From an uncultured Clostridia bacterium (GTDB lineage: Bacteria; Bacillota; Clostridia; Christensenellales; UBA1242), in contig CANQKH010000006.1 of the NCBI GenBank assembly GCA_947624415.1, forward strand, positions 13,910 through 77,909: 64,000 nucleotides of DNA, given 5' to 3'. Shown here piece by piece: positions 44,695-63,568 of the stretch. The notes beneath the pieces are model-generated. The model searched no databases, was not told where the DNA came from, and was given only the letters and a program-made list of their open reading frames with translations. How positions within the stretch are numbered: the stretch's first letter is position 1; every line of letters begins with the position of its first letter. Made by a program: the position numbers and the translations under genes.

Positions 44695-45486
44695 ATGAAA
44701 TTACATATTTTAGGGACTGGCCATGCAATGACATTTAAAAATTATAACACCTGCTATGTTATTGAGGAAAATGGTCAATTTATGCTTGTTGATGCAGGTG
44801 GAGGAAATAGAATTATAACAAGGCTTGGCGAGGCGGAAATTGATATTGTAAAGATAGATTACGCATTTTGCACTCACACCCACACCGACCATTTGCTGGG
44901 TTTTGCATGGGTTGTAAGATTGAATTATCATGCATTTAAAGCAGGCCTTAGAGAAACACCATTCACCATTGTTGGCAGTCATGAATGCGTGTCGGCAATC
45001 AAAACTTTGGCAAAAATAACTTTAGGTGAAAGTGCATATGATAGTGTTATAGATAAGAAAATTTTGTTCAAAGAGGTTAAAAATGGCGAAAAAATGCAAA
45101 TTTTAGGGCTAAATTTTCAATTTTTTGATACTTACGCTGTTGATATGCCTCAAATGGGCTTTTATATTGAAGAAAAAGATTTTGTTTTTGCGGGTGATGT
45201 TCCGCTGAATGAAAGATATTTTGAAAAGTTTAACAATGCCAAATATCTTTGCCTTGAAGCACTTTGTTCTGTAAACGAATTAAAAAAGGGTGGACTTCCA
45301 AACAAACATTTCCCAGTTGTTAAATCGGCAGAAACTGCTCAAAAAATTCATGCTCAAAATTTGATTTTATGGCACACGGCAGACAGACTTCCAAACAGAC
45401 AAGAGGTTTATTTGAAAGAGGCAAAAAGTGTATATGATGGAAATGTAATAGTTCCAAATGACCTTGACGTTGTGGAAATAATTTAA
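44695..45486 (+). CDS. MBL-fold metallo-hydrolase (RNase Z/BN-like)
   Basis: LHILGTGHA, VDAGGG, CTHTHTDHLLG (HxHxDH); AAGGAGG before the ATG at 44695. Confidence 0.7.
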   Translation: MKLHILGTGHAMTFKNYNTCYVIEENGQFMLVDAGGGNRIITRLGEAEIDIVKIDYAFCTHTHTDHLLGFAWVVRLNYHAFKAGLRETPFTIVGSHECVSAIKTLAKITLGESAYDSVIDKKILFKEVKNGEKMQILGLNFQFFDTYAVDMPQMGFYIEEKDFVFAGDVPLNERYFEKFNNAKYLCLEALCSVNELKKGGLPNKHFPVVKSAETAQKIHAQNLILWHTADRLPNRQEVYLKEAKSVYDGNVIVPNDLDVVEII

Positions 45487-45580
45487 GCCTACTACATATT
45501 AAAAAATAATTGCATTTTTATTGGCACAAATCTCATATGAAATTCATATGAAATTTATATAAAAAATTTTGAAAAAACTG

Positions 45581-45609
45581 TTGACAAATATTTTTTAATG
45601 TGTTATTAT
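45581..45609 (+). promoter_or_regulatory. extended -10 promoter driving the Y-RNA-like genes
   Basis: TTGACA (45581-45586), 17 nt, TGT-TATTAT (45601-45609); predicted start near G45616. Confidence 0.6.
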
Positions 45610-45615
45610 AATACT

Positions 45616-45708
45616 GCCGTAGTGTAGAGAACAGTTACTTCGTCATTAAGGATTTGCCCGACGATCGACGGTCGGGCAGTGCTGTTCTCGCCCTTTCTCG
45701 GCAATTTT
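45616..45708 (+). ncRNA. Y-RNA-like structured RNA 1
   Basis: 5'/3' closing stem GCCG/CGGC (45616-19 / 45699-702), internal loop UAGUGUA vs GCCCUUUCU, 8-bp stem GAGAACAG/CTGTTCTC (45627-34 / 45682-89), inner 8-bp hairpin TGCCCGAC/GTCGGGCA; adjacent to a TROVE gene. Confidence 0.6.
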
Positions 45709-45716
45709 AAATATTC

Positions 45717-45815
45717 TGGTTGTGGTAGTGTGGATAAGAGTTACTTCGGTCAATTGTATTCTCCTGCTTGCAGGAGAGAGATCCCTTATCGCCTTTATTC
45801 TCCACAACTCCATTT
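45717..45815 (+). ncRNA. Y-RNA-like structured RNA 2 (paralog of RNA 1)
   Basis: Same architecture with different stem sequences: GTTGTGG/CCACAAC, loop UAGUGUG vs GCCUUUAUUCU, GATAAG-G/C-CTTATC, inner hairpin CTCCTG-CTTG-CAGGAG; shares GTAGTGTrGA..AGTTACTTCG with RNA 1. Confidence 0.6.
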
Positions 45816-45818
45816 TTA

Positions 45819-45846
45819 AAGTTGCCTTTTCGGGCAACTTTTTATA
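45819..45846 (+). terminator. intrinsic terminator after the Y-RNA-like genes
   Basis: GTTGCC-TTTTCG-GGCAAC followed by TTTTT. Confidence 0.65.
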
Positions 45847-45906
45847 TTGTAATAACTTACTAAGTAAAAACATAAAAAGAAAATAATAAGTAATAAGGAG
45901 GAAAGT

Positions 45907-47430
45907 ATGTCAAAATTTAATTGGGATAAGATTAATCAAACATTAAACAAATCGGGATTTGAGGCCTATAAATTAACAGACAAGGAAAAACTTGTTTCTA
46001 TGGTTTTAACTACAATGTTTGGTGAAGAAAAATTTTATGGCGACAACACAAGCGAACTTGCAAGGCTTGCTGTCAAAATGATTGAAAAAGGAAATGGACA
46101 ATTTGTTGCAAATCTCGCAGTTTTTGCAAGAAATGAAATGGGGTTAAGGAGTGTATCGCACGCACTCTGTGCTATTCTTGCCGGAAATGAAAAAGGCAAG
46201 GAATATGTCAAATATGCAGTGCTTGGTGTTTGCAGAAGGGCTGACGACATCCTTGAAATTTTGTCATGCTATCTCCATGTTTATGGAAAACCAGTAGCCA
46301 ACTCCCTTAAAAAGGCACTCGCAAAAGCAATGAACAACTTTGACGAATATAGTTTTGGAAAATATAAGGGAGGAAATAGGGCTGTGAAATTTGCTGACGT
46401 TTTAAAAATTACACACCCAAAGGCAAAAAACGAAGAACAAAACAAAATTTTCAATGCTATAATCAATGACACTTTGAAAACTCCTTACACTTGGGAAACT
46501 CAACTTAGCGAAAGAGGTAACACAAAGGAGGTTTGGGAAGAACTTATTGACAGTGGAAAATTGGGCATGATGGCATTGACTCGCAATCTTAACAATATTC
46601 TTAATGTAAAAGCAGAAAATCTTGATAAAGTTTTGGATGCTTTGAAAAATGAAGAAGCAATTAAGAAAAGCAAGATTTTGCCATTTAGATTCTATTCTGC
46701 ATATCTTAAAGTTGAAAACAATCCTAATTGCTCCTCAAAAGTGCTTAATGCACTTGAAAGAGCGGTTGAGGCAAGTGTAAAAAACATTCCTGTTCTAAAA
46801 GGCAAAACTTGTATTGCAATTGATGTGAGCGGGTCTATGGATGGTGAAATATCATATAACAGTCAAATTCGTTGTGCAGATATAGCCGCATTATTGGGTG
46901 CAATGGCAAACTATATTTGCGAAGATTCTATTATAATGACATTTGATACAACTTTAAAAAGACAAATTTTGCCTTCAACAAATGGAATTATTGCAAACGC
47001 AAAGTCTATAAAAAACACAGAGGGCGGAACGGCGATTGGGCTTCCTATTGCTGAACTTTTAAACGAAAATATTTATGTCGACAGAATTATACTTTTATCT
47101 GACAATGAAGTTAACCACTCTGTTGACAGGCCAATTCAATACACAAACAGCAAAAATAGTAAATCTTTGGGCAGACCACTTTCTTGCCAAGAACTTCTTA
47201 ATCTTTACAAACAACACGTAAACAAGAAGGTTTTCCTTCATGGTGTTGACTTGCAAGGATATGGGACTACCCAGTTTAGGGGAGAAAGAGAGTCTTTTAT
47301 ATCTGGTTGGAATGAAAAAATATTTGACTTTATTCACCTTGAAGAGGAGGGCTTTGGCAGTATTGTAAAAGTCGTTGAACTATACAATGAAGTGAGCGGA
47401 AATAATGTTGACGATGATGCAGAGGGCTAA
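45907..47430 (+). CDS. rsr: Ro60-related TROVE-domain protein with C-terminal vWA domain (Rsr-like)
   Basis: TROVE-like N-terminal two thirds (FYGDN..., FVANLAVFARNEMGLR, LPFRFYSAY); vWA MIDAS DVSGSM ... GGT; AAGGAGG RBS. Confidence 0.75.
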   Translation: MSKFNWDKINQTLNKSGFEAYKLTDKEKLVSMVLTTMFGEEKFYGDNTSELARLAVKMIEKGNGQFVANLAVFARNEMGLRSVSHALCAILAGNEKGKEYVKYAVLGVCRRADDILEILSCYLHVYGKPVANSLKKALAKAMNNFDEYSFGKYKGGNRAVKFADVLKITHPKAKNEEQNKIFNAIINDTLKTPYTWETQLSERGNTKEVWEELIDSGKLGMMALTRNLNNILNVKAENLDKVLDALKNEEAIKKSKILPFRFYSAYLKVENNPNCSSKVLNALERAVEASVKNIPVLKGKTCIAIDVSGSMDGEISYNSQIRCADIAALLGAMANYICEDSIIMTFDTTLKRQILPSTNGIIANAKSIKNTEGGTAIGLPIAELLNENIYVDRIILLSDNEVNHSVDRPIQYTNSKNSKSLGRPLSCQELLNLYKQHVNKKVFLHGVDLQGYGTTQFRGERESFISGWNEKIFDFIHLEEEGFGSIVKVVELYNEVSGNNVDDDAEG

Positions 47431-47584
47431 ACTCGCACAAAAGAAAAAAGACCTCCATATAACCACAAAGGAACTAGCCCTCCAACTCGGTGTCAAGTAT
47501 GGGACACTATCTATGGTGCTTTGTGGCAGTTATTCAAATGAAGAAGTTGAGAAAGTTGTGCTTGATTGGCTCAAACGAAAATAA
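47414..47584 (+). CDS. small HTH-like protein (56 aa, below ORF-track cutoff)
   Basis: Hand translation MMQRAKLAQKKKDLHITTKELALQLGVKYGTLSMVLCGSYSNEEVEKVVLDWLKRK; overlaps the rsr 3' end by 17 nt in another frame. Confidence 0.4.
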   Translation: MMQRAKLAQKKKDLHITTKELALQLGVKYGTLSMVLCGSYSNEEVEKVVLDWLKRK

Positions 47585-47589
47585 TTATA

Positions 47590-47625
47590 AACATCATATT
47601 GATTTTTCAATATGGTGTTTTTTTT
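47590..47625 (+). terminator. intrinsic terminator
   Basis: CATCATATTG / CAATATGGTG stem (one G-U) followed by T8. Confidence 0.6.
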
Positions 47626-47729
47626 AAATAATGGTGTTTTTTTTAAAAAATATAGTAATATTTTGAAAATTATTGTGTTTTTTTAATAAAAATGGGAAAT
47701 TTTTTTAAAATTTAGTCGTGTGAGCAAAG

Positions 47730-47838: not shown

Positions 47839-50800
47839 TTAAATATGTTGCCACTCAACATACAAGTCCTTATTTGAGTCTATAACTATAAGGCTCATGT
47901 CTGCATCGGCGTTCCCAAATGCTGAATTGTATAAGTTTTTGCAACCGCTTGTATTCCATGATGCACTGTTAAAACTATATCTTACTCCTATATATTTTCT
48001 TGATACATCAATTATAAGTGTTCGCTGTGTTATTGTTCCATTGAGGTCGGAAACCATATATAGTGTTGTGCCAATAATATAAGAGCCTTCAAGAACATAC
48101 ATTTCATCTAGTGTTCGGCGAGTTGATGTTTCATCATAACTGCTTATCCACCATGCAGGGTCAACCCAGTCGCAGTGGAAGGTTAGTTTATGATAAGACC
48201 TGCTTTGAGTTGTGTAAGTTGCAGAGAATGTAAGGTCATAATTTGGAACAATATTTGAAGTTATTTCCTTGCCGTCTGTCGTTTTGTATCCTTGGAAGTA
48301 GTAACCCACACGCTTAATAGGAATATTAGCCTCTCTTACAACCTCTTCAAAATCTTTTAGAGGTTGGAGTGTAAATCTTGTGCCTTGATAAAGCGATGAT
48401 GAGAAGGTTTTTGCCGTAAACTTACTATTTTCAAGCACATAATAGGTGTAAGTAATGGTGTATTTGTTTCTAATATAGAAAGTTAAATCACATTCTGGCA
48501 TAAGAATTGGTCGAGATGATTGAATTGTATATTCACTATCTGTATACCAACGTGTATTGCTGTAAATTGGGAATCCTGCAGGGAAAACGACAGGGGTGTT
48601 TGGTTCAAAGTAGGCAGAATATACTATGTCATTGTCATGGATTGTAATTTTGTAAAGTTTATCAATTGTTTTTAAGTATTCCCACTTTGCATAAACGGTG
48701 AGATTGTTGGATGGCATTAGTGATGGTGCAGGGGTTGAATAACTGCTGTCAACAAACCAGCCTTTAAACAAATACACGAGTGTCTTTCCATCTTGTTTGA
48801 GTAAAATTTGCTTATAATTTGGAAGGCAACTTGTAAGTTCAACCCTTTCAAAGGTATGAATTGTAAGTGTTTCGCCAGCCAAACCTTGCACAACTGTTAA
48901 AGTTTGAGCCTTTAAAGTTTGATAAGTTTGATAGGTTGCATATAGGTTTTCGCTTTCTTCTGGCACAATTTCAACTGTTACGCCATCTGCATCTCTCCAT
49001 CCAATAAACTCTTGCTTGTATAATATTCCATCAATTTCATATTCAATATATTTATCTACTATATCACTTCGCAACTGAGAACCTACAAGGGCATAATCAT
49101 TTGCAATAAGTTTGCCATTATTGTAATAATTAATTGTTCTGTAGCCCTCTTTGATTGTCCATTTACCATAGAGGGTTATATTTTTTGCAGGAATTATACC
49201 TTTTTTAAATTCACTTCCTTTTGCAAAGTTTTCACTTGTAAACCAGCCCTCAAAAGAGTAGAGTGTATAATCAATACCTGGATGATTTGTGCCTATAACT
49301 TTATCACTATATTTTGGCAATATAAATCTTTCATTAGGGCTTCCCGATATAGAAGGTTGGGATATGTCATCAAAGCCAGTTACAAATGTTATTGTATAAA
49401 GTCGTTCTCCAGTTTTTGTCCAATTGCCATTTTCTGCCGAATATTCAACGCTTTCCTTACCTCGTTTAAAGCCTTGCTCAAATTTATTGATTGTAGTGGC
49501 GTTAAAGTCAACACCATGAGAAACTGTCAAAGGATTTGCCTTTATGTAAAGGGTTGTTCCCCAAATTAGTGGCATATCAACATTGAGCGAGAGACCACCA
49601 ATTACATTTTGACCATTAATATTTTTTATGCTTGCACCAACCTCTAAATTTCCCATTTTGTCATCGCCTGTGAGTTCGTTGAGGTTGAGATTTAAAGTGT
49701 AAAATTCTGTGTTGTTTTGATAAGGGCAGGAGAAACTATTTATAATATTATTTAAGTTTGGAGTGTGATTGTCTGATGCTTCAAGTGATTTTTGTATCGC
49801 ACCAATTACATCGTCATTAAAGCCCGTTCCCCATTTTACATAATATAGTATGTCATCAAGCACGCTGTCTATGTGTGCCTTTATTGTCTTTTCATATTGG
49901 TCGCCATCGCCATTTGTCTCATGCCTATAGAAGTAGAAGTAGTTATCCTTGAAATAAATGTAAAGCATTCTGTCTGTAACTGAAAGGGGACTAAAGAGTC
50001 CGTTTGACCATGGAGTATCGTTGTTTAAGTTATATACAAGAAAATCAAGAACAGGAATAGCACCAATAGCAGCCTGCATCTGCAATTTTCCATCTGCAAG
50101 ACTTATTTGCATATTGACAGAAATATCCCAGTTTATATCTATAAATCCCACCCTCAATTTTATATTAATGTAACCTTTTATTTCAAAGGTTTTATTTGAG
50201 GAAATTGTATTTATTAAAGCCTCAATCAAATCACTTGACCCTGTCAAATCTATGTAATTTTTGTTTTGATTTGGTGCTGTTACCCCATTAAATTCATTAA
50301 AGTAAACATCAAAATCGAAATGTTCATTGTGCGTAACGCCGGTGTAGAAGTTTTTAAATGAAATTTGAGATATAGAGCCGTTGTTTGTGTAAACAACAAT
50401 TTCCATTTGAGTTGCTTTGGCGTTTGTTGAAAGGGTAATTCCGTCAATGACAATTGTAAGTGCATTATCTTCAACATCTAGTTTTTTAAGCATATTTACA
50501 TAAGAAGGTGATATTCCTTGTGTGTTTTGTGAAATTATATTTACAATTTGGAAAATGTCTATGTCTTGACCATTTAAAAGGTTTTCTGCCACTCCACCCA
50601 AACTTTCCATATTGAATAGTTTCAAAGCAACACTAATTATTTTTTCAAAGTCGCCCTGTGAAACTTTGAGGGCAAGGCTGTTATAGTCTACATAAATGTT
50701 TGACTGGTCGCCACTTGCACTTAAATTCAAATCAAATCCCTCAGTCTTCGTGTTTTTAACTCCACGAACTTGGGCGTTTGCATAAAATTTTATTTTGCCT

Positions 50801-53800
50801 GTTAAATCAAGTTGCAAAAGCATATTTTGTGCAGAGTAAATTTGGGTGTTCTTTTCATAAACGTTGGCATTTGCCGATATATTGTATTGCCTTGAATATA
50901 TATAATCCTTAATGGCTTTCACGAAAGGCAATAGTTCTTCAATGGAAGTGTATTTGCCTTTAATTTCAACTTTACCCTTTGTTGGAACAACTTTGCCCAC
51001 AATTTCAATGTCATTATATCTTACATTTAAGCCCGTCAGCCCATTTTCATTAAAGTTTATTTGTCCTGCCAGGTCGCCCAGTTTAAAATTCAAGGTGTTG
51101 TCTTCAAATCTAAAATTCGATGATGCGAGAATGTTTGCCAAATTGATTTTGTCAAGCCCAGAGCTTATTAGTGATAAAATGTCTATATTAAATTCATCTT
51201 TTAAGAATTGTGCCACATTGCCAATTTGGTCGAGATTGAATTGCAATTTTAAATTTTCTTTTTCAATATAAATTATATTGTCAATAAGTTTTATTCCAAG
51301 TTCAATTCCCTCAATTTGAGCATTTGCAGAAAGGGTTATTCCTGTTCCGTCAATGTTTAAATTGCCATTCAATGAAAATGAAGGATTTGTAGCCGTGAAG
51401 TCAATATAAAGTTGTTTGCTTTTTACAAGTGCAAGCACCGATTCAATTTTGCCCATCAAACTGCTTAATGGAAGATAATCGTCTTCATTAACCTCTGGCA
51501 AAACTTTTGGTGAAGAATTTATATTTAATGTAAATGCAACGTCTAAAACATATAATTTAACATCTTTAATCATGCTTTGGTTGAAGTTTATCTCAATAAG
51601 CACTCTGTCAAAGCCAAATGCCAATGTGTCATCATTAAATTTAAGTTTGCTGTTTGAAAGGATTGTATCAATTAGAGAACTGTCAAAATTTATGTTGTCA
51701 ATGACAAGGTTTAAAATTTCTGTCATGTTTGCATCAATTTTTTCAGTTATAAGTTTGAAAAGTCCTTCGAGTTCATCTGCTTTGCAAGAAATGTGCAAGT
51801 CGTTATAGTCAAAGAATAATGTGCGATTTTGCAATTTAAGGCTTGCCGCAACACTTCCACTTCTCAATTGTAAGAGGGCGGAAAGACTTTCATTTTCATG
51901 ATTCAAAACCCCTTCAATTTCAATGTCTTTATATGTTGCGTTGACTGTCAAATAATGCGTGTTGCGTGTTATATATTCTCTTAGCGATGTCGCCTTTTCT
52001 ATTAAGGTTGTAATAGGGGTGAAGTTAGATTTGTCAAATTGTGGCATTGCGTGGGCATCGTCTTGAATTTTTACATATCCATTAAAGTCTAAGCCTTCAA
52101 TTTGTGCAATGCGAGGATTATCACCCTCAAAGCCAACATTAAGATTTAAGTCCTTGTATGCAAACATAATATTGTTTTGCTCAATTTTAAGAACGGTTGC
52201 CTTTAAAATATTTTCCAAAATGCTGTTTAAGTCTAATTTGTTTGCAATATTTACAAGGTCTGGGGTCAGCCCGCTTTGTAAAACATTTACAGCATCATTG
52301 AAATCTTGCGCTAAGAATGAAACTCTTTCATCATTTACAGTAAGATAAACCATTTTGTCTAAAACTATAAGACTAAAAATATTGTTATCTCCAAAAACAT
52401 TAAAGTTTGCTTGAAGATTGCCATTACTGTAATTTACAAACCCTTCAATAGTGTTTAAAGGAGTTTTGCCCCCAATTTCTATGTAATATGTTTTTGATTT
52501 AATATAATCATAGATTTTTGTAATTTTGTTTAGAATTATATTTGCCGATAAATATTGTTCTTCATTTATTGGCGAGAAATCTATTTGGGTGGCGGAAGAG
52601 AGGTTTAATGATATTTGAGTTGTTTCCAAATTGATTTTAAGCCCAGTTAATATAGTGTCATAGTAAAGTGTAACTGTTTGATTATTTAAAAGATTTAAAG
52701 TCAAAGAGTCATCCCCAGCCACAATATTTTTGACAAAACTTTCATTCTTTTGAGGGTCAAGCCAGTTTGCGAGTGCGTCAATAATTGTTTGAGGGTTTAT
52801 TTCCACGCCAAGGCTTTTAAGCATTGAAGCAATATCATCTTTTGTTCCATAAAGATAAACGTCATCAAAATTTATATATGCTTTGCCATTCAAATAGTCA
52901 AGTGAAATTTCTTTGCCCAGTGCAAGTAAATCTAAATGCAAGCGTGAATTTTTAATGTCTGCTTTTAAAGAAATATCTCCCTTTATGCCGGCAATGGACA
53001 TTTCGCCCTCTGCCACAATGTAGTTTTGCTCTGTTGTGCTTATTGCCGCATCAATTGCAGGCAATGTTAGGGCAAGGTCGATATAACTGTCAATGCTGTT
53101 TGCAAGGTCGATGTTTCTTGCAGGAATTGAAGTTACATTTATTGTCAAGTCATCTGCCTTAAATGTAAGGCTTTCAAAATATCCTTCATTTACTACAAAT
53201 TCAATCTGGCCAATATTTTTTATTGTCAATGTGTAATTGTTGCCATTTTGGGTGAAGTTTTCAATTATGCTTAAATCCAAATCTGATAGCATTGAATTTT
53301 GGTCGCCTGGCAAAAGTTGAGAAAGGTTTAAATTTGAAAAGGCCTCTTTTGGCTTTGTAAGAAGGTCTGTTATAAACTCAACAGGCAAATTTGTGTTAAA
53401 ATGAGTGTTTAATATTTGCAAAGCCTCGGGTAGAGAGGATAAATCAAATTTAAAATTCAAGTTGCCAAGTTCAATATATAAAACTTTGTTTAACACAAGA
53501 AGTTTTGCATTTTGTCCCAAAAGTTCCATTTCATATTTGGCATTTTGTTCTTTCAAGTTTGCATAGAGATTGCCGGCAAAGTTTAATTCGCCCATGCCAA
53601 AGTCTATTTTTGCTCCAAACTTGTCATTTGTAATATAGTTTAGTGTTGAACTTAAAACCTCAAACATTGAACTTACATCCAAGTATTGCTCAGCAGGTGC
53701 TTTAACTTCAATGTTTGAAGGGTAGGACACGCCAACATCAAGTCCAACTGTTACGTTTTCAATTTGAGATTGAGGCATTGAAAGGGATAAAACATTGTAA

Positions 53801-54408
53801 TCGGTGTCGCAAACAACCTGCATTGCCCCAACAACAGGGACATTTATGTCAAGAATAATTACATCCTTTTCAACTCTCTCCTTTAAATCGGATAGCATTC
53901 CAAGTATGCTTTCCAAACTTAAATCTTCCACGTTAAGCCCGAGCGAAGATAGTGAAAAGCCGAGAGATGACAATATTTGCTCAATTGAACTTGAAAAGTT
54001 TTGGGTGTTAAAGGTAAATTTAGCGTTGCACATTTCAAGATAAATATTTCCGCCTGTAAAACAAAAGTCTATTGGCAGGCTGTCTTCATTTATCCTTAAT
54101 TCTACATTTCCTTGCAACTGCAAATTTTCATTTTGGTCATCTTTTTTAATGTCGGTGTCAAGGTTGACGGTAACTTCACTGTCTGTTTTGACGACAAGTG
54201 CAAGGTCAAGATGAATATTATTTGTTGCGGAAAGGTTGTTGTAAATTTTGCTTATTTGTGGTGCTATTGTTACTTTGTTTCCATTTGACTCTGAAAAAGG
54301 AATTGATGTCAGCAAAAATAAACTGCCGACAGCAGTGCCCAAGGTTATAATAAGATATACAAGACAGTATCCTAATATTTTTTTTACTTTATTTAACTTT
54401 TTTTTCAT
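47839..54408 (-). CDS. giant N-terminally anchored surface protein: ~7 internal ~170-190-aa modules plus C-terminal Listeria/Bacteroides-type (Flg_new) repeats
   Basis: ATG at 54408 has a GGGAG RBS (track start 54459 lacks one); TM ILGYCLVYLIITLGTAVGSLFLL; C-terminal units F-x-G-W...(L/V)-(Y/F)-(A/G)-x-W (FEGWFTSE..LYGKWT, FKGWFVDS..VYAKWE, FIGWRDAD..LYATYQ, FQGYKTTD..FSATYT) within about 47842-49410. Confidence 0.8.
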   Translation of the reverse strand: MKKKLNKVKKILGYCLVYLIITLGTAVGSLFLLTSIPFSESNGNKVTIAPQISKIYNNLSATNNIHLDLALVVKTDSEVTVNLDTDIKKDDQNENLQLQGNVELRINEDSLPIDFCFTGGNIYLEMCNAKFTFNTQNFSSSIEQILSSLGFSLSSLGLNVEDLSLESILGMLSDLKERVEKDVIILDINVPVVGAMQVVCDTDYNVLSLSMPQSQIENVTVGLDVGVSYPSNIEVKAPAEQYLDVSSMFEVLSSTLNYITNDKFGAKIDFGMGELNFAGNLYANLKEQNAKYEMELLGQNAKLLVLNKVLYIELGNLNFKFDLSSLPEALQILNTHFNTNLPVEFITDLLTKPKEAFSNLNLSQLLPGDQNSMLSDLDLSIIENFTQNGNNYTLTIKNIGQIEFVVNEGYFESLTFKADDLTINVTSIPARNIDLANSIDSYIDLALTLPAIDAAISTTEQNYIVAEGEMSIAGIKGDISLKADIKNSRLHLDLLALGKEISLDYLNGKAYINFDDVYLYGTKDDIASMLKSLGVEINPQTIIDALANWLDPQKNESFVKNIVAGDDSLTLNLLNNQTVTLYYDTILTGLKINLETTQISLNLSSATQIDFSPINEEQYLSANIILNKITKIYDYIKSKTYYIEIGGKTPLNTIEGFVNYSNGNLQANFNVFGDNNIFSLIVLDKMVYLTVNDERVSFLAQDFNDAVNVLQSGLTPDLVNIANKLDLNSILENILKATVLKIEQNNIMFAYKDLNLNVGFEGDNPRIAQIEGLDFNGYVKIQDDAHAMPQFDKSNFTPITTLIEKATSLREYITRNTHYLTVNATYKDIEIEGVLNHENESLSALLQLRSGSVAASLKLQNRTLFFDYNDLHISCKADELEGLFKLITEKIDANMTEILNLVIDNINFDSSLIDTILSNSKLKFNDDTLAFGFDRVLIEINFNQSMIKDVKLYVLDVAFTLNINSSPKVLPEVNEDDYLPLSSLMGKIESVLALVKSKQLYIDFTATNPSFSLNGNLNIDGTGITLSANAQIEGIELGIKLIDNIIYIEKENLKLQFNLDQIGNVAQFLKDEFNIDILSLISSGLDKINLANILASSNFRFEDNTLNFKLGDLAGQINFNENGLTGLNVRYNDIEIVGKVVPTKGKVEIKGKYTSIEELLPFVKAIKDYIYSRQYNISANANVYEKNTQIYSAQNMLLQLDLTGKIKFYANAQVRGVKNTKTEGFDLNLSASGDQSNIYVDYNSLALKVSQGDFEKIISVALKLFNMESLGGVAENLLNGQDIDIFQIVNIISQNTQGISPSYVNMLKKLDVEDNALTIVIDGITLSTNAKATQMEIVVYTNNGSISQISFKNFYTGVTHNEHFDFDVYFNEFNGVTAPNQNKNYIDLTGSSDLIEALINTISSNKTFEIKGYINIKLRVGFIDINWDISVNMQISLADGKLQMQAAIGAIPVLDFLVYNLNNDTPWSNGLFSPLSVTDRMLYIYFKDNYFYFYRHETNGDGDQYEKTIKAHIDSVLDDILYYVKWGTGFNDDVIGAIQKSLEASDNHTPNLNNIINSFSCPYQNNTEFYTLNLNLNELTGDDKMGNLEVGASIKNINGQNVIGGLSLNVDMPLIWGTTLYIKANPLTVSHGVDFNATTINKFEQGFKRGKESVEYSAENGNWTKTGERLYTITFVTGFDDISQPSISGSPNERFILPKYSDKVIGTNHPGIDYTLYSFEGWFTSENFAKGSEFKKGIIPAKNITLYGKWTIKEGYRTINYYNNGKLIANDYALVGSQLRSDIVDKYIEYEIDGILYKQEFIGWRDADGVTVEIVPEESENLYATYQTYQTLKAQTLTVVQGLAGETLTIHTFERVELTSCLPNYKQILLKQDGKTLVYLFKGWFVDSSYSTPAPSLMPSNNLTVYAKWEYLKTIDKLYKITIHDNDIVYSAYFEPNTPVVFPAGFPIYSNTRWYTDSEYTIQSSRPILMPECDLTFYIRNKYTITYTYYVLENSKFTAKTFSSSLYQGTRFTLQPLKDFEEVVREANIPIKRVGYYFQGYKTTDGKEITSNIVPNYDLTFSATYTTQSRSYHKLTFHCDWVDPAWWISSYDETSTRRTLDEMYVLEGSYIIGTTLYMVSDLNGTITQRTLIIDVSRKYIGVRYSFNSASWNTSGCKNLYNSAFGNADADMSLIVIDSNKDLYVEWQHI

Positions 54409-54777
54409 TCTTACTCCCAAAGTGAATTGTAATTGTTTGAGGTTATATTTTTTCATCAATGAATATTTTTTTCATTGAATGAATTACTTCTTCCTTGCGT
54501 TGCAATAAAAATTGCGGAGACATTTTACCTGCCTGTGAAAGGGCAAAACAAAGTTTGTGCTTGAAACCTTTTCACCTATGCAATGTAAAACTTATATTAA
54601 TTAATTCTATTATATTATAAATAAAATTAATTTTCAAGTGGAAATAGTAAAATTTTTGCCAAGAAAGGGCTTTCTTTAACGAAAAAAATCCAAAATAGCA
54701 CAATTTTGGTTAAAAATATATAAAAATATAAAAAATTTACCAAAAAATTAAATCAAAATAATTTTAAAATTTGCAAA

Positions 54778-57948: not shown

Positions 57949-59718
57949 ATGGAAATTGATTTTTTGAAAGGGGAATATGTGCTTGTGGACAAACAGCATT
58001 TACCTTTCACCGTTAAAGGGAAAAATGAACTTATTTTATTTAAACAAAAAGAAGGTTGCGACTATTATGCTTTTGAAAGTGGGCAGTTAAGTGATGAAGA
58101 GGGCAAATTTTTTAAATTTTGTATGCGTGCCGTCCATCCTGTATTTTATCAATTTAAATATGGTGATGATTTCTTCAGCGAGGCAAAGGAGTTTCATGAA
58201 GATAACGAGGCATACAGGCTTTCAGAGGGACTGGAATCGCAAAGTTATGATTATGATTTTAAAAACTTTGAGTTAAATGCAGAAAAAGAATTTCAAGAGG
58301 GTCTGGGAGAAAACAGACTATATCCTGCCATAGTTGTAAAAAAGGGTGGCATAAGATGGAAACAATATAATGACTTTATGAGAGATAGCCTTGCTGTGGG
58401 CGATAACAAAATGATTTTGGAGGAACTTAAACGACACAGCATTGCATTATTTTGTTTGGAGCAGGACGGGACTCTTACACTTTTGCGTCATTTTACACAA
58501 GATTTAAGTTATTATATTTTGCGTGGGAAGGATGAAATTGGAAATTTAATTGAATTAAATTATGGCTCAATAAAAATTCTACTAGATTGCGGAAAAGAGT
58601 TGAATGAAAATTTAGAGGAGGACAGCGAACTTGAAAAAATGGTGCTGTCGAAAAATTATGATGGGGTTTTAATTAGTCATTATCATATTGACCATGCCGG
58701 GCTTGTCGGCAAAGTTAAATGTCCGATATATATGGGAAAGGGATGTCTCAAAGTTTTAAATGCTCAAAATAATTACAAGAATGAGCCACTTCTAAAAAAT
58801 ATAAACTGCTTTGAGCCAAACGAGGAGTTTGCAATAAAGAAGAATGGCTTTGAAATTAAAGTCAAGCCAATTCTTGTTGACCATTCGGCATATGACAGTT
58901 ATATGTTTTTGATACGTGGTGGCGGAAAGACATTGCTCTATACAGGTGATTTTCGTGCACATGGAAGAAAAAACTTTTCCCAAACCCTTAAAAATTTGCC
59001 AAACAAGGTGGATGTTTTGATTTGCGAAGCCACCAATATGTTCTGCCCAAATGAAAATATGCTTGAAGAGGAAGTTGAGATGAAGGCTACTCAATTAATG
59101 AAGGACTACAAACACGTCTTTGTCTTCCAAGCAGGGACAAATATTGACAGGCTTGTTTCTTTTTACAAGGCAAGTATAAAAAACAAAAAGGTGTTTTTAA
59201 TGGACACGTATGTGTCGGGGATTTGCGAAAACTTGCCAAATATTCCAAATCCAAAAACATTTAAAGATGTTTATTGCTTCTGGGATGTGCCAAAACGATT
59301 TGGCAGAGATGGTGTAAGGAAATATGAAATTGACTGGCGACAGTTTCACAAATTAAACAAGGGACTTGGCTATTGCGATGTGGGAAGCCCAAAAAATGAA
59401 AATTTTGGCGACCTGTCAAACTTCACTATGATTGTTAGGCCATCAATGCTAAATTATTTGAAAAGGGCAGACGAAGACAAATTGTCAAGATTTAAAACTT
59501 CAATTTTCGATAATTCAATTTTAATTTACTCACTTTGGCAGGGCTACAAAGAAAAAGATGATGTTAAAAGTTTTCTTGAAGAAATGGAAAAAATGGGAGT
59601 TAAAATTGTTGACCTTCACACAAGTGGGCACTGCGACAAACAAACAATTGATAGACTTAAACAAAAAGTCAATCCAAGCATTATTGAATATGTCCACTTT
59701 ATAAAAAAGGCATTATAA
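57949..59718 (+). CDS. beta-CASP-type MBL-fold nuclease with ~200-aa N-terminal domain of unknown function
   Basis: LLDCG, ISHYHIDHAG (HxHxDH), VDHS, YTGDF, CEAT, late DLHTSGH; AAGGAGG RBS. Confidence 0.65.
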   Translation: MEIDFLKGEYVLVDKQHLPFTVKGKNELILFKQKEGCDYYAFESGQLSDEEGKFFKFCMRAVHPVFYQFKYGDDFFSEAKEFHEDNEAYRLSEGLESQSYDYDFKNFELNAEKEFQEGLGENRLYPAIVVKKGGIRWKQYNDFMRDSLAVGDNKMILEELKRHSIALFCLEQDGTLTLLRHFTQDLSYYILRGKDEIGNLIELNYGSIKILLDCGKELNENLEEDSELEKMVLSKNYDGVLISHYHIDHAGLVGKVKCPIYMGKGCLKVLNAQNNYKNEPLLKNINCFEPNEEFAIKKNGFEIKVKPILVDHSAYDSYMFLIRGGGKTLLYTGDFRAHGRKNFSQTLKNLPNKVDVLICEATNMFCPNENMLEEEVEMKATQLMKDYKHVFVFQAGTNIDRLVSFYKASIKNKKVFLMDTYVSGICENLPNIPNPKTFKDVYCFWDVPKRFGRDGVRKYEIDWRQFHKLNKGLGYCDVGSPKNENFGDLSNFTMIVRPSMLNYLKRADEDKLSRFKTSIFDNSILIYSLWQGYKEKDDVKSFLEEMEKMGVKIVDLHTSGHCDKQTIDRLKQKVNPSIIEYVHFIKKAL

Positions 59719-59798
59719 TTTATCAAAATTTAAAATTGTTTGCAAAATCCTTTTGCTTATAATTCAAATGTGCTAATATATAATAAAGGAGAAAGTCT

Positions 59799-60788
59799 AT
59801 GATTAATGGCGAGAAGAAAGGCTCAATACTTTACGTCCTTGAAATATTAAAAAGGTATACTGACAAAAATCACTCGCTTACATACTCACAAATCCTTGAA
59901 AAACTCGAAAACGAATATGACTTGGCTATTGACAGAAAAACTGTTGCTCGCGATATTGATATTTTGTCTTCATTTGGATATGAGATAATAAAGAGAGGAA
60001 ATTATGGTGTTTACTTAGGTTTTCGAGACTTTGAGGAAGGGCAGTTGAGATTTTTGGTTGATGCCATATATTCCTCAAGGTCAATGCCAACTCAATATGC
60101 ACGCGAACTTGTCAAGCAACTCACAAAAGACCACAGCATATATGACAGGAGAAAATTTCAACATCTTGAAAAAATTGATGATGATGTAAGGTCTGACAGC
60201 CGTCAATTATTTCTTACAATTGAGTTGCTAGAGGATGCTATAAGCGGGGGCAAGAAAGTTGAATTTCAATATAACGCATATGGCACAAACAAAAAATTGA
60301 AGCCTAAAAAAGATGGAAAGATTTACAAAATCAATCCCTATTATATGGTAAACACGCATGGCAACTATTATCTTGTTTGCAATTATGACAAATATGACAA
60401 TCTTGGCAATTACAAAATTGAATTTATTTCCGATTTAAAGATTTTGGATGAACCCGTCAAGCCACTTTCTTCCCTGCCTGGACAAGAAAATTTTTCAATA
60501 AAAGATTACATAAAAGAGCATATTTATATGAATGCCGGCGAGTCGGTTGAGGCAAAAATTAAGATTGATGACGAGGGAAAAGTTAGTGATATTATAAGTT
60601 GGTTTGGCAATAGGGTTGGAATATTTTTTGAAAATGACAAATTGTATGCAAGCATACGTGTCAATGAAAATTCCCTTATTTATTGGGCACTTCAATATGG
60701 ACAATCGGTTGAGGTCGTCGAGCCTGCATCGACCCGTGAAAAAATTTTAAATATTTTAGATAAAATGGTTGAAAAATACAAAAATTAG
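59799..60788 (+). CDS. WYL-domain transcriptional regulator (wHTH-WYL-C-terminal extension)
   Basis: N-terminal wHTH ILYVLEILKRYTD...TYSQILEKLE...IDRKTVARDIDIL; WYL-type core YKINPYYMVNTHGNYYLVCNYDKYDNLGNYKIEFI. Confidence 0.7.
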   Translation: MINGEKKGSILYVLEILKRYTDKNHSLTYSQILEKLENEYDLAIDRKTVARDIDILSSFGYEIIKRGNYGVYLGFRDFEEGQLRFLVDAIYSSRSMPTQYARELVKQLTKDHSIYDRRKFQHLEKIDDDVRSDSRQLFLTIELLEDAISGGKKVEFQYNAYGTNKKLKPKKDGKIYKINPYYMVNTHGNYYLVCNYDKYDNLGNYKIEFISDLKILDEPVKPLSSLPGQENFSIKDYIKEHIYMNAGESVEAKIKIDDEGKVSDIISWFGNRVGIFFENDKLYASIRVNENSLIYWALQYGQSVEVVEPASTREKILNILDKMVEKYKN

Positions 60789-60798
60789 GAGAAAAATT

Positions 60799-60993
60799 AT
60801 GAAAATTAAGCAAAAAATCAAGAAATTTTTGAATATTCAAACAAAATTACCAAAAAAAATTGAAATTAATGACAATCAAAATGCCAATTATATAAACAAG
60901 CCACGCGAAGAGTTTGACAAAGTTGAAAAGAGAAAAATTTACTTGCCAAATGAAAATGTTGACGATTTAGACACATTTGAAAATGATTTATAA
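60799..60993 (+). CDS. small hypothetical protein
   Basis: 64 aa from ATG 60799 (AGGAG RBS); basic N-terminus, acidic C-terminus. Confidence 0.4.
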   Translation: MKIKQKIKKFLNIQTKLPKKIEINDNQNANYINKPREEFDKVEKRKIYLPNENVDDLDTFENDL

Positions 60994-61004
60994 GGAGGAA
61001 AATT

Positions 61005-61700: not shown

Positions 61701-61806
61701 TTTTCAAAAGTCTAATTTATCAATCTTCTTTTCATTTGGTCAATTTGTATAAACAAAAAAGGGGCAAACCATTTGAAAAAAGATGTAATTTAATTAAGGA
61801 GACGTT

Positions 61807-62112
61807 ATGAAAGATAACATACCTTTTTCAAAATTTTATGAATACTATAAACAAGAAGAGGATACAAAATTTCAATTCTCAAAGGAAAAAACAAACAGAC
61901 AGACACAGTGGCTTAATGCCATGGCGGATGTTACTTGGGAAGACCTAGAAAGCCTAAAACCCGATGAAATGATTAAAATTCCAATAGCATGGATTTATGA
62001 TTGGACTCATGTAACTGCGAATTATATCTTACAAGACCAAGTCCAGTCCCTTTATAATAGATATCACTTGCCAATTTATTCAATAAAAGAATATTTGTCC
62101 TTTTTTAAGTGA
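61807..62112 (+). CDS. hypothetical protein
   Basis: 101-aa ORF with AAGGAG RBS. Confidence 0.4.
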   Translation: MKDNIPFSKFYEYYKQEEDTKFQFSKEKTNRQTQWLNAMADVTWEDLESLKPDEMIKIPIAWIYDWTHVTANYILQDQVQSLYNRYHLPIYSIKEYLSFFK

Positions 62113-62187
62113 TAGGAAATTTTGTTTCTTTAAAAATGGACAAGCGGGCGGAAAAAGTTGTGATTTAGAAAAAAAAAAGGAGTGAAT

Positions 62188-62826: not shown

Positions 62827-62932
62827 AATTAAAGAAAATTACTAAAAAAAACAAAAAAAAGAGTAAAAAAACGCAAAAAAAAGGAAATTTTTGAAGAAAG
62901 TGAAGGCGTAGACAAAAATTTATGGAGGAAGC

Positions 62933-63529: not shown

Positions 63530-63568
63530 TTCCCCTCTTGCCAACTAATAATAAATTTGGAGGAAAAT

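What the first reader, a model, noticed from the sequence alone, without database searches (positions are those of the whole stretch)
45581..47584. Ro60/Rsr-like TROVE-vWA gene preceded by two tandem Y-RNA-like RNAs with compensatory stem changes
Seen: the region 45616-45815 is relatively GC-rich for intergenic DNA here. It has a strong extended -10 promoter (45581-45609) and a clean terminator (45819-45846). It folds into two similar modules, each built as closing stem, asymmetric internal loop, 8-bp stem, then inner hairpin. The loop and linker sequences are conserved between the modules: 5' side GTAGTGTrGA, then AGTTACTTCG, and 3' side GCCyTT..CT. The paired stems differ in a compensatory way: GCCG/CGGC vs GTTGTGG/CCACAAC, GAGAACAG/CTGTTCTC vs GATAAG-G/C-CTTATC, and TGCCCGAC/GTCGGGCA vs CTCCTG/CAGGAG. 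The next gene (45907-47430) has a TROVE-like body plus a vWA MIDAS motif (DVSGSM). Established: bacterial Ro60 orthologues (Rsr) are typically encoded next to one or more Y-RNA-like genes (Deinococcus Y RNA, Salmonella YrlA/YrlB), which tether Rsr to exoribonucleases. Inference: this is an Rsr/Y-RNA module in this lineage. An RNase Z-like MBL gene (44695-45486) lies immediately upstream and may be a partner. A 56-aa HTH-like ORF (47414-47584) overlaps the rsr stop. I saw no tRNA-like arm of the YrlA type, so these RNAs may be a divergent Y-RNA class.
Basis: partly seen in the sequence, partly recalled or inferred. Interest (0 to 1): 0.7.

Follow-up and report, generated by a model that had tools for sequence, protein, structure and literature searches.

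The report
Two short Y RNAs beside rsr
An uncultured gut Clostridia bacterium encodes a Ro60/Rsr ring protein directly preceded by two small tandem Y RNAs that carry a variant Rsr-binding motif and no tRNA-like arm, so this is a fairly ordinary Rsr/Y-RNA locus of a subtype that has no Rfam model.

Summary
Window 45907-47430 encodes a Ro60/Rsr protein: TROVE plus Ro60-type vWA domains, a DVSGSM MIDAS motif, and a predicted fold matching Ro60 structures. Between a conserved promoter (45581-45609) and a terminator (45818-45846) lie two ~90-nt RNAs (45614-45704 and 45718-45809).

Both RNAs belong to a large family found next to rsr in about 160 public loci, with about 380 covariance-model hits, all but one on the rsr strand. 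The shared core is:
- a closing helix P1, a one-base bulge, then two more pairs;
- a conserved loop (5' UGYA / 3' GAUUUU);
- an 8-bp helix P2;
- a near-invariant UUACUUC.

P1 and P2 covary strongly (95-97% paired, against 39-49% when partners are slid). The loop is the positional equivalent of the published "CGAA" Rsr-binding motif. Family members fall into two classes: long ones with a YrlA-type tRNA-like domain and short ones without. Both window RNAs are short, as are those at the rsr loci of the six closest relatives (61-82%) with upstream sequence. Rfam has no matching model.

The upstream MBL gene is linked to rsr only in very close relatives, so a partnership is not supported. A small HTH-like ORF overlapping the rsr stop is conserved more widely. 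A possible Rsr-sensing attenuator is suggested but unproven.

The parts
45581..45609 (+). Promoter of the Y-RNA transcript: TTGACA, 17 nt, TG-extended TATTAT. The predicted start lies at about 45615-45618, which is the first bases of the module-1 closing helix.
   Evidence: matches 11 of 12 consensus positions, with the TG extension; both hexamers are invariant in four relatives (78-82% Rsr identity) while nearby intergenic DNA diverges.
45614..45704 (+). Y RNA-like module 1, short class.
- P1: 45615-45619 pairs with 45699-45703.
- Bulge: U45620.
- P1b: A45621:U45698 and G45622:C45697.
- Loop: 5' UGUA 45623-45626 opposite 3' GCCCUUU 45690-45696.
- P2: 45627-45634 pairs with 45682-45689.
- Invariant motif: UUACUUCG 45635-45642.
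- 8-bp GC-rich hairpin: 45655-45662 pairs with 45671-45678.
   Evidence: model R1 hit at 45612-45706, 61 bits (this sequence was in the seed); covariation of P1, P1b and P2; fold z = -4.2; structure conserved in relatives.
45705..45717 (+). AU-rich linker between the modules (UUUUAAAUAUUCU). It is a likely processing site. It can also pair with the A-tract and 5' arm of the terminator.
   Evidence: AAUUUUA conserved in four relatives; alternative 12-bp helix 45700-45711 with 45815-45826.
45718..45809 (+). Y RNA-like module 2, short class.
- P1: 45719-45725 pairs with 45802-45808.
- Bulge: U45726.
- P1b: A45727:U45801 and G45728:C45800.
- Loop: 5' UGUG 45729-45732.
- P2: 45733-45740 pairs with 45783-45790, with one A.C mismatch.
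- Invariant motif: UUACUUCG 45741-45748.
- Hairpin: 45760-45767 pairs with 45770-45777.
   Evidence: R1 hit, 55 bits (this sequence was in the seed). RNAalifold independently recovers P1, the bulge, the two P1b pairs and P2. The mismatched P2 pair is A-U in L002 and L166, and G-C in L169. The hairpin sequence differs in each relative but remains paired.
45818..45846 (+). Intrinsic terminator of the Y-RNA transcript, about 60 nt upstream of the rsr start codon. No promoter-like site lies between it and rsr.
   Evidence: the hairpin is kept in four relatives, with a conserved 5' arm and a variable loop and 3' arm.
45907..47430 (+). rsr, a Ro60-related ring protein of 507 aa: TROVE/HEAT-repeat ring plus a vWA domain with MIDAS motif DVSGSM (residues 306-311).
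   Evidence: Pfam TROVE E = 4.9e-31 and vWA_Ro60 E = 3.2e-8. PDB sequence hits to phage Ro60 9KOP (1.5e-37) and Xenopus Ro60 1YVP (9e-7). AlphaFold2 model with pLDDT 84; TM-score 0.75 to 1YVP and 0.58 to D. radiodurans Rsr 2NVO; invariant residues.
47405..47584 (+). Small basic ORF of 56-59 aa that overlaps the rsr stop codon and is probably translationally coupled. It may be a helix-turn-helix protein.
   Evidence: tblastn finds it at 48-88% identity at the same position in L001-L007; an ORF of 59-71 aa overlapping the rsr end is called in L168 and L172-L175. HTH_3 E = 0.0038, for the L003 orthologue only.
47589..47628 (+). Terminator that closes the rsr/small-ORF unit.
   Evidence: 14-pair stem followed by a T-run.
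44695..45486 (+). Upstream MBL-fold hydrolase. It is a neighbour; a functional link to rsr is not supported.
   Evidence: Lactamase_B and Lactamase_B_2. RNase Z models 81 bits against a cut-off of 252; adjacent to rsr only in L002, L166 and L169.

Best explanation
The locus is an Rsr (bacterial Ro60) ribonucleoprotein module in a chromosomal region of an uncultured Clostridia bacterium. One promoter drives a transcript of about 230 nt that contains two tandem short Y RNAs and ends at an intrinsic terminator just upstream of rsr.

Each Y RNA pairs its 5' and 3' ends into a helix (P1). P1 is interrupted by a single bulged pyrimidine, continues for two more pairs, and opens into a conserved asymmetric loop (5' UGYA / 3' G-A/C-UUUU). 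An 8-bp helix (P2) and an invariant single-stranded UUACUUC follow.

By position, this bulged helix and loop are the counterpart of the 'GNCGAA / CGAA' Rsr-binding site of published bacterial and phage Y RNAs. I therefore infer that one Rsr ring binds each module here. The distal part is a simple GC-rich hairpin rather than the tRNA-like domain of YrlA. I infer that it acts as the effector or gating module: it would either block access to the Rsr cavity or tether another factor, such as a 3'-to-5' exoribonuclease.

Shown here: gene identities; RNA family membership; helices supported by covariation; strand and position linkage to rsr; absence of a tRNA-like domain.

Inferred, not shown: Rsr binding; processing into two RNAs; the effector.
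For: Protein:
- TROVE plus vWA_Ro60 domains.
- Sequence hits to solved Ro60 structures.
- Full-length fold match to Ro60/Rsr structures.
- Invariant MIDAS residues.

RNA family:
- GTTACTTCG occurs 187 times in 162 rsr loci. Every occurrence in a fetched locus is on the rsr strand; most lie just upstream of rsr.
- Model R1 gives 182 and 201 hits at E <= 1e-3 in the two sets of loci. Only one of these 383 hits is on the opposite strand.
- In the 64-kb window R1 finds only the two modules plus one weak hit.

Structure:
- 94.8% and 96.8% of cells are paired, with 396 and 716 double-sided changes. Slid-partner controls give 39-49%.
- Loop pair J3:J'-2 has mutual information 1.07 bits (G:C 137, U:A 58, C:G 15). 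Loop pair J2:J'-1 is A:U 189 and G:C 17.
- RNAalifold recovers the bulged helix independently.

Link to known Y RNAs:
- Long family members carry GGTTCRA T-loops and TAGCTCA D-arms in the V, T, AS, D order described for YrlA (PMC4201824).
- In Gordonia phage Neville, the units upstream of the Ro-like gene read P1-AUGCGAA/AUGCGUA-P2-GUUACUUC. This places CGAA at loop positions 4-7, where the window has UGUA and UGUG.
- R1 also finds units beside the TROVE genes of Bacillus phage G and crAss001.
- The CGAA internal-loop motif contributes to phage Ro60 binding: single substitutions raise KD three- to four-fold (PMC12135203).

Conservation: the promoter, both modules and the terminator are conserved, with compensatory hairpin changes, in four close relatives.
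Against: - There are no expression or binding data.
- Rfam has no hit, even at E <= 10.
- The literal GNCGAAN0-1G motif is absent.
- NCBIfam's Rsr equivalog model scores only 42 bits against a cut-off of 900, so the protein is a distant Rsr relative.
- Module 2 alone does not fold significantly better than shuffles (z = -1.6), and its P2 carries an A.C mismatch.
- The effector for short Y RNAs is unknown, even in model organisms.
- A tRNA-like YrlA could exist elsewhere in the genome, outside the window.
Confidence: 0.8

Rival explanations
1. The tandem RNA region acts mainly, or additionally, in cis as an Rsr-sensing transcription attenuator for rsr. In this model Rsr bound to nascent module 1 locks its closing helix, the terminator then forms, and rsr is not transcribed. 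When Rsr is scarce, the 3' strand of that helix plus the linker pairs with the 5' arm of the terminator, and transcription reads through. The logic resembles PyrR-type attenuation.
For: - A 12-bp alternative helix, 45700-45711 with 45815-45826, has -13 kcal/mol, against -3.3 +/- 1.6 for shuffles.
- Both the MFE fold of the whole region and the RNAalifold consensus of four relatives use this helix in place of module-1 P1 and the terminator.
- Duplex energies within a clade are -12 to -17 kcal/mol, against -5.7 to -13.6 across clades. There is a concerted change: CGGCAA with GUUGCC in one clade, CGGCAG with ACUGCC in the other.
- Unrelated sequences give the same relationship in L033 and L049, and in L009 and L027.
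- No promoter-like site lies between the terminator and rsr.
Against: - The extension beyond the shared GGCAR core is AU-rich and not individually significant.
- The relationship is absent in L012, L035, L103, L130 and L137 and in L176 and L177.
- In L172-L174 the two 'terminator' arms enclose a third Y module. The terminator stem may therefore be a duplicated or vestigial P1, and the complementarity a by-product of descent.
- Family members also occur downstream of rsr, for example in crAss001, L055 and L141. A leader role cannot explain those.
Confidence: 0.2
2. The upstream MBL-fold (RNase Z-like) hydrolase is the nuclease partner that these Y RNAs tether to Rsr.
For: - It is adjacent, on the same strand, in the window and in three close relatives.
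- Its best NCBIfam matches are RNase Z models.
Against: - The RNase Z scores are 81 and 73 bits, against cut-offs of 252 and 293.
- It aligns end to end with a cyclic-nucleotide phosphodiesterase model (36 bits against a cut-off of 400) and gives a sub-threshold Apyc1 hit.
- tblastn finds it near rsr in none of the other ~160 loci, including the 60-65% relatives.
- It has its own promoter-like site, and its neighbours are housekeeping genes: xth, dapA and dapB.
Confidence: 0.07
3. The two elements are decaying remnants of tRNA-like YrlA genes and have no present function.
For: - They lack T and D arms.
- Module 2 has a mismatch in P2 and a rare G at loop position 7.
Against: - The promoter, both cores and both hairpins are kept in relatives at 78-82% Rsr identity, while the surrounding intergenic DNA diverges and the hairpin sequences change in a compensatory way.
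- The same two-module pair, with P1 sequences UGCCG and UUGUGG, persists in the 59-65% relatives.
- Short forms make up about 40% of 247 unique family members.
Confidence: 0.04

Closest known systems
Short bacterial and phage Y RNAs without a full tRNA-like domain: S. Typhimurium and M. smegmatis YrlB, D. radiodurans Yrn2 (Chen et al. 2014, PMC4201824), and Thermus phage phiLo Yrl1/Yrl2 (PMC12135203)
   Same: - Encoded next to rsr on the same strand.
- Two or more Y RNAs per locus, made from one precursor upstream of rsr in M. smegmatis.
- A 5'/3' stem flanks an internal loop that carries the Rsr-binding motif.
- The distal part is a plain hairpin.
   Different: - The loop reads UGUA or UGUG where those RNAs have CGAA.
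- The window RNAs keep the invariant UUACUUC, whose UUAC fits the YUAY consensus that Chen et al. report for YrlA; I could not check it in the published YrlB/Yrn2 sequences.
- The hairpin loops are not both the small pyrimidine-rich loops described for YrlB and Yrn2.
- Direct sequence comparison was not possible, because those sequences are not in the collections on hand.
YrlA, the tRNA-like bacterial Y RNA (Chen et al. 2014; Wang et al. 2018, bioRxiv 10.1101/312249)
   Same: - The same Rsr-binding core: P1, loop, P2, then UUAC, which fits the conserved YUAY that starts the V loop.
- Long members of the same covariance-model family in related loci have V, T, AS and D arms in the YrlA order.
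   Different: - The window RNAs have no T, acceptor-like or D arm. A 20-25-nt hairpin takes their place.
- The literal GNCGAAN0-1G motif is absent.
Metazoan Y RNAs and the Ro60-binding bulged helix (Stein et al. 2005, Green et al. 1998, as summarised in PMC4201824 and PMC12135203)
   Same: - A terminal stem formed by the 5' and 3' ends.
- A conserved helix with a single bulged pyrimidine next to a conserved 5'-strand sequence.
- The partner protein has the same fold (TM-score 0.75 to Xenopus Ro60).
   Different: - No sequence similarity is detectable by Rfam's models (no hit at E <= 10).
- These RNAs would be made by the bacterial RNA polymerase with an intrinsic terminator.
- The loop and motif sequences differ.
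PyrR-type protein-mediated transcription attenuation. This comparison applies only to the secondary hypothesis and rests on my own knowledge.
   Same: A protein-binding stem whose 3' strand can alternatively pair with the 5' arm of a downstream terminator placed just before the regulated gene.
   Different: Not demonstrated here. The protein-binding stem would itself be a stable trans-acting RNA, and the complementarity may simply reflect the duplication history of the modules.

Membership tests
Ro60/Rsr protein | TROVE (HEAT-repeat ring) domain | tested here: met
   Pfam PF05731, E = 4.9e-31, 108.8 bits against a cut-off of 23. The AlphaFold2 model (pLDDT 84) aligns full-length to Ro60 structures: 1YVP TM-score 0.75, 9KOP 0.65, 2NVO 0.58.
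Ro60/Rsr protein | C-terminal vWA domain with a MIDAS motif (DxSxS) | tested here: met
   PF25045 vWA_Ro60, 34.1 bits against a cut-off of 27.7. DVSGSM lies at residues 306-311. D306, S308 and S310 are invariant in 35 homologues.
Ro60/Rsr protein | NCBIfam equivalog RNA-bind_Rsr (NF041674) | tested here: not met
   42 bits against a cut-off of 900. The protein is a distant TROVE/Ro60 homologue, not an equivalog of the curated Rsr set.
Ro60/Rsr protein | Binds Y RNA and misfolded RNA | not testable with these tools
   This needs biochemistry.
Bacterial Y RNA (general) | Encoded within a few kb of rsr, on the same strand | tested here: met
   The RNAs end 60-100 nt upstream of rsr. Across about 160 loci, 382 of 383 model hits lie on the rsr strand.
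Bacterial Y RNA (general) | The 5' and 3' ends pair into a stem that holds a conserved protein-binding helix or loop | tested here: met
   P1, bulge, P1b, loop and P2 are supported by covariation.
Bacterial Y RNA (general) | CGAA / GNCGAAN0-1G motif in the 5' strand | tested here: not met
   The window has UAGUGUA and UAGUGUG. By position, UGUA and UGUG occupy the CGAA slot. Other loci show intermediates between the two forms: UGGCGAA, UGGCGUA, CAGCGUA, UAGUGUA.
Bacterial Y RNA (general) | Stable small RNA bound by Rsr | not testable with these tools
   No expression or immunoprecipitation data are available.
YrlA | tRNA-like domain (T, acceptor-like and D arms) | tested here: not met
   ARAGORN finds no tRNA-like element in the window. 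Neither module has a GTTCRA T-loop or a D-arm motif. The inserts are 47 and 42 nt, against 80-99 nt in the long forms.
YrlA | Conserved YUAY after the stem that corresponds to the anticodon stem | tested here: met
   UUAC lies directly after P2 in both modules. UUACUUC is near-invariant in the family.
Rfam Y_RNA or any other Rfam 15 family | Covariance-model match | tested here: not met
   No hit at gathering threshold in the window or in 10 related loci, and no Y RNA hit at E <= 10 in 45480-45920.

The most novel reading that the evidence does not exclude
The Y-RNA pair may be more than an Rsr partner: it may also be an Rsr-sensing attenuator for rsr. In this reading the closing helix of module 1 is an anti-antiterminator that bound Rsr stabilises. 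Its 3' strand plus the linker can otherwise pair with the 5' arm of the terminator and let transcription run into rsr. This would give direct feedback between free Rsr and rsr transcription. In addition, this lineage may have dispensed with the tRNA-like YrlA altogether, contrary to the published generalisation that each species has at least one.
Probability: 0.2. Interest if true: 0.6.

Novelty: new variant of a known kind. Interest (0 to 1): 0.4.

Why it matters
Bacterial Ro60/Y-RNA particles are the model for how a non-coding RNA adapts an RNA-quality-control ring to particular nucleases. Gut-bacterial Ro60 orthologues have also been discussed as triggers of anti-Ro autoimmunity (my own knowledge, not tested here).

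This locus led to a covariation-supported consensus for the Rsr-binding module as it occurs in Clostridia and in gut and soil phages, including crAss001 and Bacillus phage G. Three points follow:
- The published CGAA motif is only one version of this loop.
- An invariant UUACUUC is shared by long and short forms, which makes it a candidate second contact site.
- About 40% of family members are short RNAs that searches built on the tRNA-like domain would be expected to miss.

A covariance model like R1 could annotate these RNAs. It could also correct spurious small CDS calls over them, for example in Gordonia phage Neville. If the attenuator idea were confirmed, it would be a new way for Ro60 levels to be set.

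Tried and rejected
- **Rfam.** I scanned the whole window and 10 related loci at gathering threshold, and 45480-45920 at E <= 10. Only noise hits appeared (RT-6, Phe leader, snoRNAs). No Y RNA family matched.
- **tRNA-like domain.** ARAGORN and T-loop/D-arm pattern searches found none in the window.
- **Additional family members in the window.** There is only a weak hit at 62650-62721 (21 bits). It lies inside an ORF and its P1 is unpaired, so I judged it chance.
- **MBL as a conserved partner.** Rejected on synteny and on curated scores.
- **Prophage context.** Rejected for the window: dapA, dapB, xth, a GNAT acetyltransferase and a polysaccharide flippase lie upstream. Many relatives do sit on contigs that IMG/VR classifies as viral.
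- **Small ORFs across the RNA region (45646-45873 minus strand; 45679-45819 and 45722-45886 plus strand).** Treated as spurious. Relatives differ there by indels that are not multiples of three.
- **Model R1 on an actinophage Ro locus (Gordonia phage Neville).** No hit at E <= 1. Reading the sequence by eye showed the same architecture with CGAA or CGUA in the loop.
- **Supplementary tables of Chen et al. 2014.** They are not held, so I could not check which Firmicutes that study covered. The 2020 Annual Review article is not held either.
- **Literature searches for the motif or for Clostridial or crAss Y RNAs.** Nothing relevant was found.
- **General test of the attenuator pairing across loci.** The result was mixed: 5 of 12 clean loci at p <= 0.01, confounded by relatedness between loci.
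Full report
**What is in the window**

The stretch 45581-47628 reads as one compact unit on the + strand:
- A near-consensus promoter, TTGACA-17-TGnTATTAT, at 45581-45609. It matches 11 of 12 positions and is the best site in the 3.5 kb scanned.
- About 200 nt of comparatively GC-rich non-coding sequence: GC 0.44, against 0.22-0.27 in the neighbouring intergenic DNA.
- An intrinsic terminator at 45818-45846.
- A 507-codon gene at 45907-47430.
- A 56-59-codon ORF overlapping its stop codon, at 47405-47584.
- A second terminator at 47589-47628.

The surrounding genes are ordinary chromosomal ones. Upstream lie dapA, dapB, exodeoxyribonuclease III, a HAD-family hydrolase and an MBL-fold hydrolase. 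Downstream, on the other strand, is a 2206-aa repeat protein. The closest relatives of the protein are in rabbit-gut MAGs labelled "uncultured Clostridia bacterium".

**The protein**

It matches Pfam TROVE (E = 4.9e-31) and the Ro60-type vWA domain. Its closest solved relatives by sequence are the Ro60 of Thermus phage phiLo (9KOP/9L5Y, E = 1.5e-37) and Xenopus Ro60 (1YVP, E = 9e-7).

An AlphaFold2 model (mean pLDDT 84, pTM 0.83) superposes full-length on Ro60 structures: TM-score 0.75 to 1YVP, 0.65 to 9KOP and 0.58 to D. radiodurans Rsr 2NVO. The MIDAS residues of DVSGSM are invariant in 35 homologues. It does not reach NCBIfam's strict Rsr equivalog cut-off (42 bits against 900). It is therefore a distant but clear Ro60/Rsr homologue.

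The region folds better than shuffles: z = -5.2 overall and -4.2 for module 1, but only -1.6 for module 2. The decisive evidence is comparative.

I fetched 162 loci that encode relatives of the protein, with 31-82% identity: 2 from genomes, 80 from metagenomes and 80 from IMG/VR. Every occurrence in a fetched locus is on the rsr strand. The only minus-strand match is a stray one in the window at 19943. Most lie within a few hundred bases upstream of rsr.

Parsing these instances gave one architecture:
- P1, 6 bp of variable sequence.
- A 7-nt 5' segment, YAGUGYA, with clade variants CAUUGYA, AACUGYA and UGGCGUA.
- P2, 8 bp of variable sequence ending in an invariant G:C.
- UUACUUC(G).
- A variable insert.
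- The P2 3' strand.
- A 3' segment, G-A/C-UUUU-C/A/G-U.
- The P1 3' strand.

Because I had selected instances by their pairing, I ran a non-circular control. A strict P1 6/6 plus P2 8/8 arrangement follows 124 of 257 motif occurrences, against 0-5 when the downstream 330 nt are shuffled.

**Covariation**

On a MAFFT alignment of 70 short members (A2), the 16 pairs are 94.8% paired, with 396 cells changed on both sides. No shuffle out of 500 reached these values, and sliding the partners by 1-3 columns gave 43-49% pairing.

A covariance model built from A2 (R1) found 182 hits in the first 82 loci, all on the + strand. It found 201 hits in the 80 viral loci, 200 of them on the + strand. Many of these are long forms that were not in the seed. 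On the resulting alignment of 150 hits, pairing is 96.8% with 716 double-sided changes. That alignment is fitted to the model, so it leans towards the structure.

Inside the "internal loop", two further pairs covary:
- Position 3 of the 5' segment with the penultimate base of the 3' segment: G:C 137, U:A 58, C:G 15, mutual information 1.07 bits.
- Position 2 with the last base: A:U 189, G:C 17.

P1 therefore continues for two pairs beyond a single bulged nucleotide, usually a pyrimidine. RNAalifold on four close relatives recovers this bulged helix for module 2 without being told about it.

In the window, R1 finds the two modules (61 and 55 bits; both were in the seed) and otherwise only a weak, probably chance, hit inside an ORF at 62650-62721.

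**Relation to known Y RNAs**

Insert length in 247 unique family members is bimodal. Ninety-six have 20-59 nt, and only 5 of these contain a GTTCRA T-loop. Ninety-nine have 80-99 nt, and 86 of these contain a T-loop.

The long forms show a V hairpin, a T arm (GGUUCGAAUCC), a variable hairpin and a D arm (UAGCUCA..GGUAGAGC), in the order Chen et al. (2014, PMC4201824) describe for YrlA. That paper also reports a conserved YUAY at the start of the V loop, which the family's UUAC fits. It reports a 5' motif GNCGAAN0-1G as well, and a later phage study calls this the CGAA motif and shows that it contributes to Ro60 binding (PMC12135203).

I read the region upstream of the Ro-like gene of Gordonia phage Neville by eye. 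It contains three or four units that read P1-AUGCGAA or AUGCGUA-P2-GUUACUUC, one of them with full T and D arms. This puts CGAA at positions 4-7 of the 5' segment, exactly where the window RNAs have UGUA (module 1) and UGUG (module 2). Other loci supply intermediates: UGGCGAA, UGGCGUA, CAGCGUA, UAGCGUA.

R1 does not detect the Neville units at E <= 1. It does detect four tandem units upstream of the TROVE gene of Bacillus phage G, a fifth in that phage's tRNA cluster, and one unit just downstream of the Ro gene of crAss001.

Rfam 15 has nothing that matches any of these, in the window or in ten related loci.

The window RNAs are therefore members of the bacterial Y-RNA family. They belong to the short class, like YrlB and Yrn2 in lacking the tRNA-like domain, and they carry a clade-specific version of the Rsr-binding loop.

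**The window's own lineage**

Four close relatives (78-82% Rsr identity) have sequence upstream of rsr. In all of them the promoter, both modules, the AU-rich linker and the terminator are conserved, while the distal hairpins change in a compensatory way:
- Module 2 reads CUCCUG/CAGGAG in the window, CCCCUG/CAGGGG in L002 and UCUCCGAA/UUCGGAGA in L169.
- The mismatched P2 pair of the window (A.C) is A-U in two relatives and G-C in a third.

The same orthologous pair, with P1 sequences UGCCG and UUGUGG, persists in the 59-65% relatives. It is accompanied there by a third short module (L172-L174), or by a long form with a degenerate tRNA-like domain plus a true tRNA gene (L003, L175).

No long form occurs in the 64-kb window or at the rsr loci of the six closest relatives with upstream sequence: L002, L166 and L169 at 78-82%, and L004/L005/L006 and L007 at about 61-62%. 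I cannot exclude a long form elsewhere in the genome.

**Neighbours**

The MBL gene is real. Its RNase Z matches are far below the curated cut-offs, and it also aligns end to end with a cyclic-nucleotide phosphodiesterase model. It is adjacent to rsr only in the 78-82% relatives and in none of about 160 other loci. I do not regard it as a supported partner.

The small ORF overlapping the rsr stop is conserved at the same position in L001-L007 (48-88% identity). An ORF of 59-71 aa is also called there in L168 and L172-L175. It is therefore a real gene and probably translationally coupled to rsr. Its HTH nature rests on a single sub-threshold HTH_3 match.

**Mechanism**

I infer that each module binds one Rsr ring through the bulged helix and the UGYA/GAUUUU loop, by analogy with the CGAA site. 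I further infer that the distal hairpin serves as gate or tether, as proposed for Y RNAs generally (PMC4201824; bioRxiv 10.1101/312249).

The predicted transcription start coincides with the first bases of module-1 P1, so the 5' end would need no processing. The two RNAs may be separated in the AU-rich linker, or they may act as a dimer. None of this is shown experimentally.

**A secondary lead**

The 3' strand of module-1 P1 plus the linker (45700-45711) can form 12 pairs with the A-tract and 5' arm of the terminator (45815-45826). Both the MFE fold of the whole region and RNAalifold prefer this helix.

The complementarity is kept across clades, with a concerted change: CGGCAA with GUUGCC in one clade, CGGCAG with ACUGCC in the other. 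It recurs with unrelated sequences in L033, L049, L009 and L027. No promoter-like site separates the terminator from rsr. This would fit an Rsr-sensing attenuator.

Two points count against it. The pattern is missing in several loci. In L172-L174 the two terminator arms enclose a third module, so the terminator may simply be a duplicated P1. I rate this lead at about 0.2.

**Verdict**

The locus is an Rsr/Y-RNA module of a known kind. It represents a variant that has no Rfam model and that I did not find described in the papers available to me: short Y RNAs only at the locus, UGYA in place of CGAA, and an invariant UUACUUC.

Noticed in passing
L004/L005/L006 1568-2148 (+): An OLE RNA (Rfam RF01071, 365 bits) lies directly upstream of the two short Y RNAs and rsr in a relative with 62% Rsr identity.
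   Followed up: no
L003 403-474; L098 1496-1578: True tRNA genes are embedded inside the Y-RNA arrays. In L003, and in the similar L175, the tRNA follows a long Y RNA whose tRNA-like domain looks degenerate.
   Followed up: partly
window 45534-45560: The tandem, palindromic element CATATGAAATTCATATGAAATTTATAT lies about 20-50 nt upstream of the -35 box. It is invariant in four relatives while the flanking intergenic DNA diverges. It is a candidate operator, possibly for the small HTH-like protein.
   Followed up: partly
window 62650-62721 (+): A weak hit of the Y-RNA model (21 bits, E about 1e-3) contains GGUUACUUC inside an ORF. Its P1 is not paired, so it is probably chance.
   Followed up: partly
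L164 (Gordonia phage Neville) 2202-2670: Three or four Y RNA-like units, one of them with full T and D arms, overlap the annotated small hypothetical CDSs gp88-gp90 and the start of the Ro-like CDS. Those CDS calls are probably spurious or mis-started.
   Followed up: partly
L163 (Bacillus phage G) 2790-3296 and 8895-8963; L165 (crAss001) 4449-4534: Bacillus phage G has four tandem short Y RNA-like units upstream of the TROVE gene gp540 and a fifth inside its tRNA/tmRNA cluster. crAss001 has one unit just downstream of the Ro-like gene gp96. None of these is annotated in the records.
   Followed up: partly
L172-L174, about 1365-1500: The two arms of what serves as the terminator in the window clade (ACUGCUG ... 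CAGCAGU followed by a U-run) here enclose a third Y module. This suggests that terminators in these arrays derive from module closing helices.
   Followed up: partly
L175 3215-4494: In a relative with 59% Rsr identity, rsr and the small ORF are followed directly by a T4 RNA ligase 1-family gene and a KTI12/AAA_33 kinase-like gene. This is an RNA-repair neighbourhood reminiscent of rsr-rtcBA.
   Followed up: no
window 57949-64000: This stretch holds a cluster of genes: a 589-aa MBL-fold protein, a WYL/WCX-domain regulator, an FtsK-gamma-domain protein and a HerA/FtsK-like ATPase. It may be a mobile or defence island.
   Followed up: no
window 47839-54459 (-): A 2206-aa ORF whose only Pfam match is one Listeria-Bacteroides repeat. 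It is probably a large surface protein.
   Followed up: no
IMG/VR loci L083-L162: At least 526 IMG/VR stretches encode relatives of this Rsr. Many of the 80 loci fetched carry arrays of up to about eight Y RNA-like units, for example L090 and L098. Rsr/Y-RNA modules therefore appear common on contigs that IMG/VR classifies as viral.
   Followed up: partly
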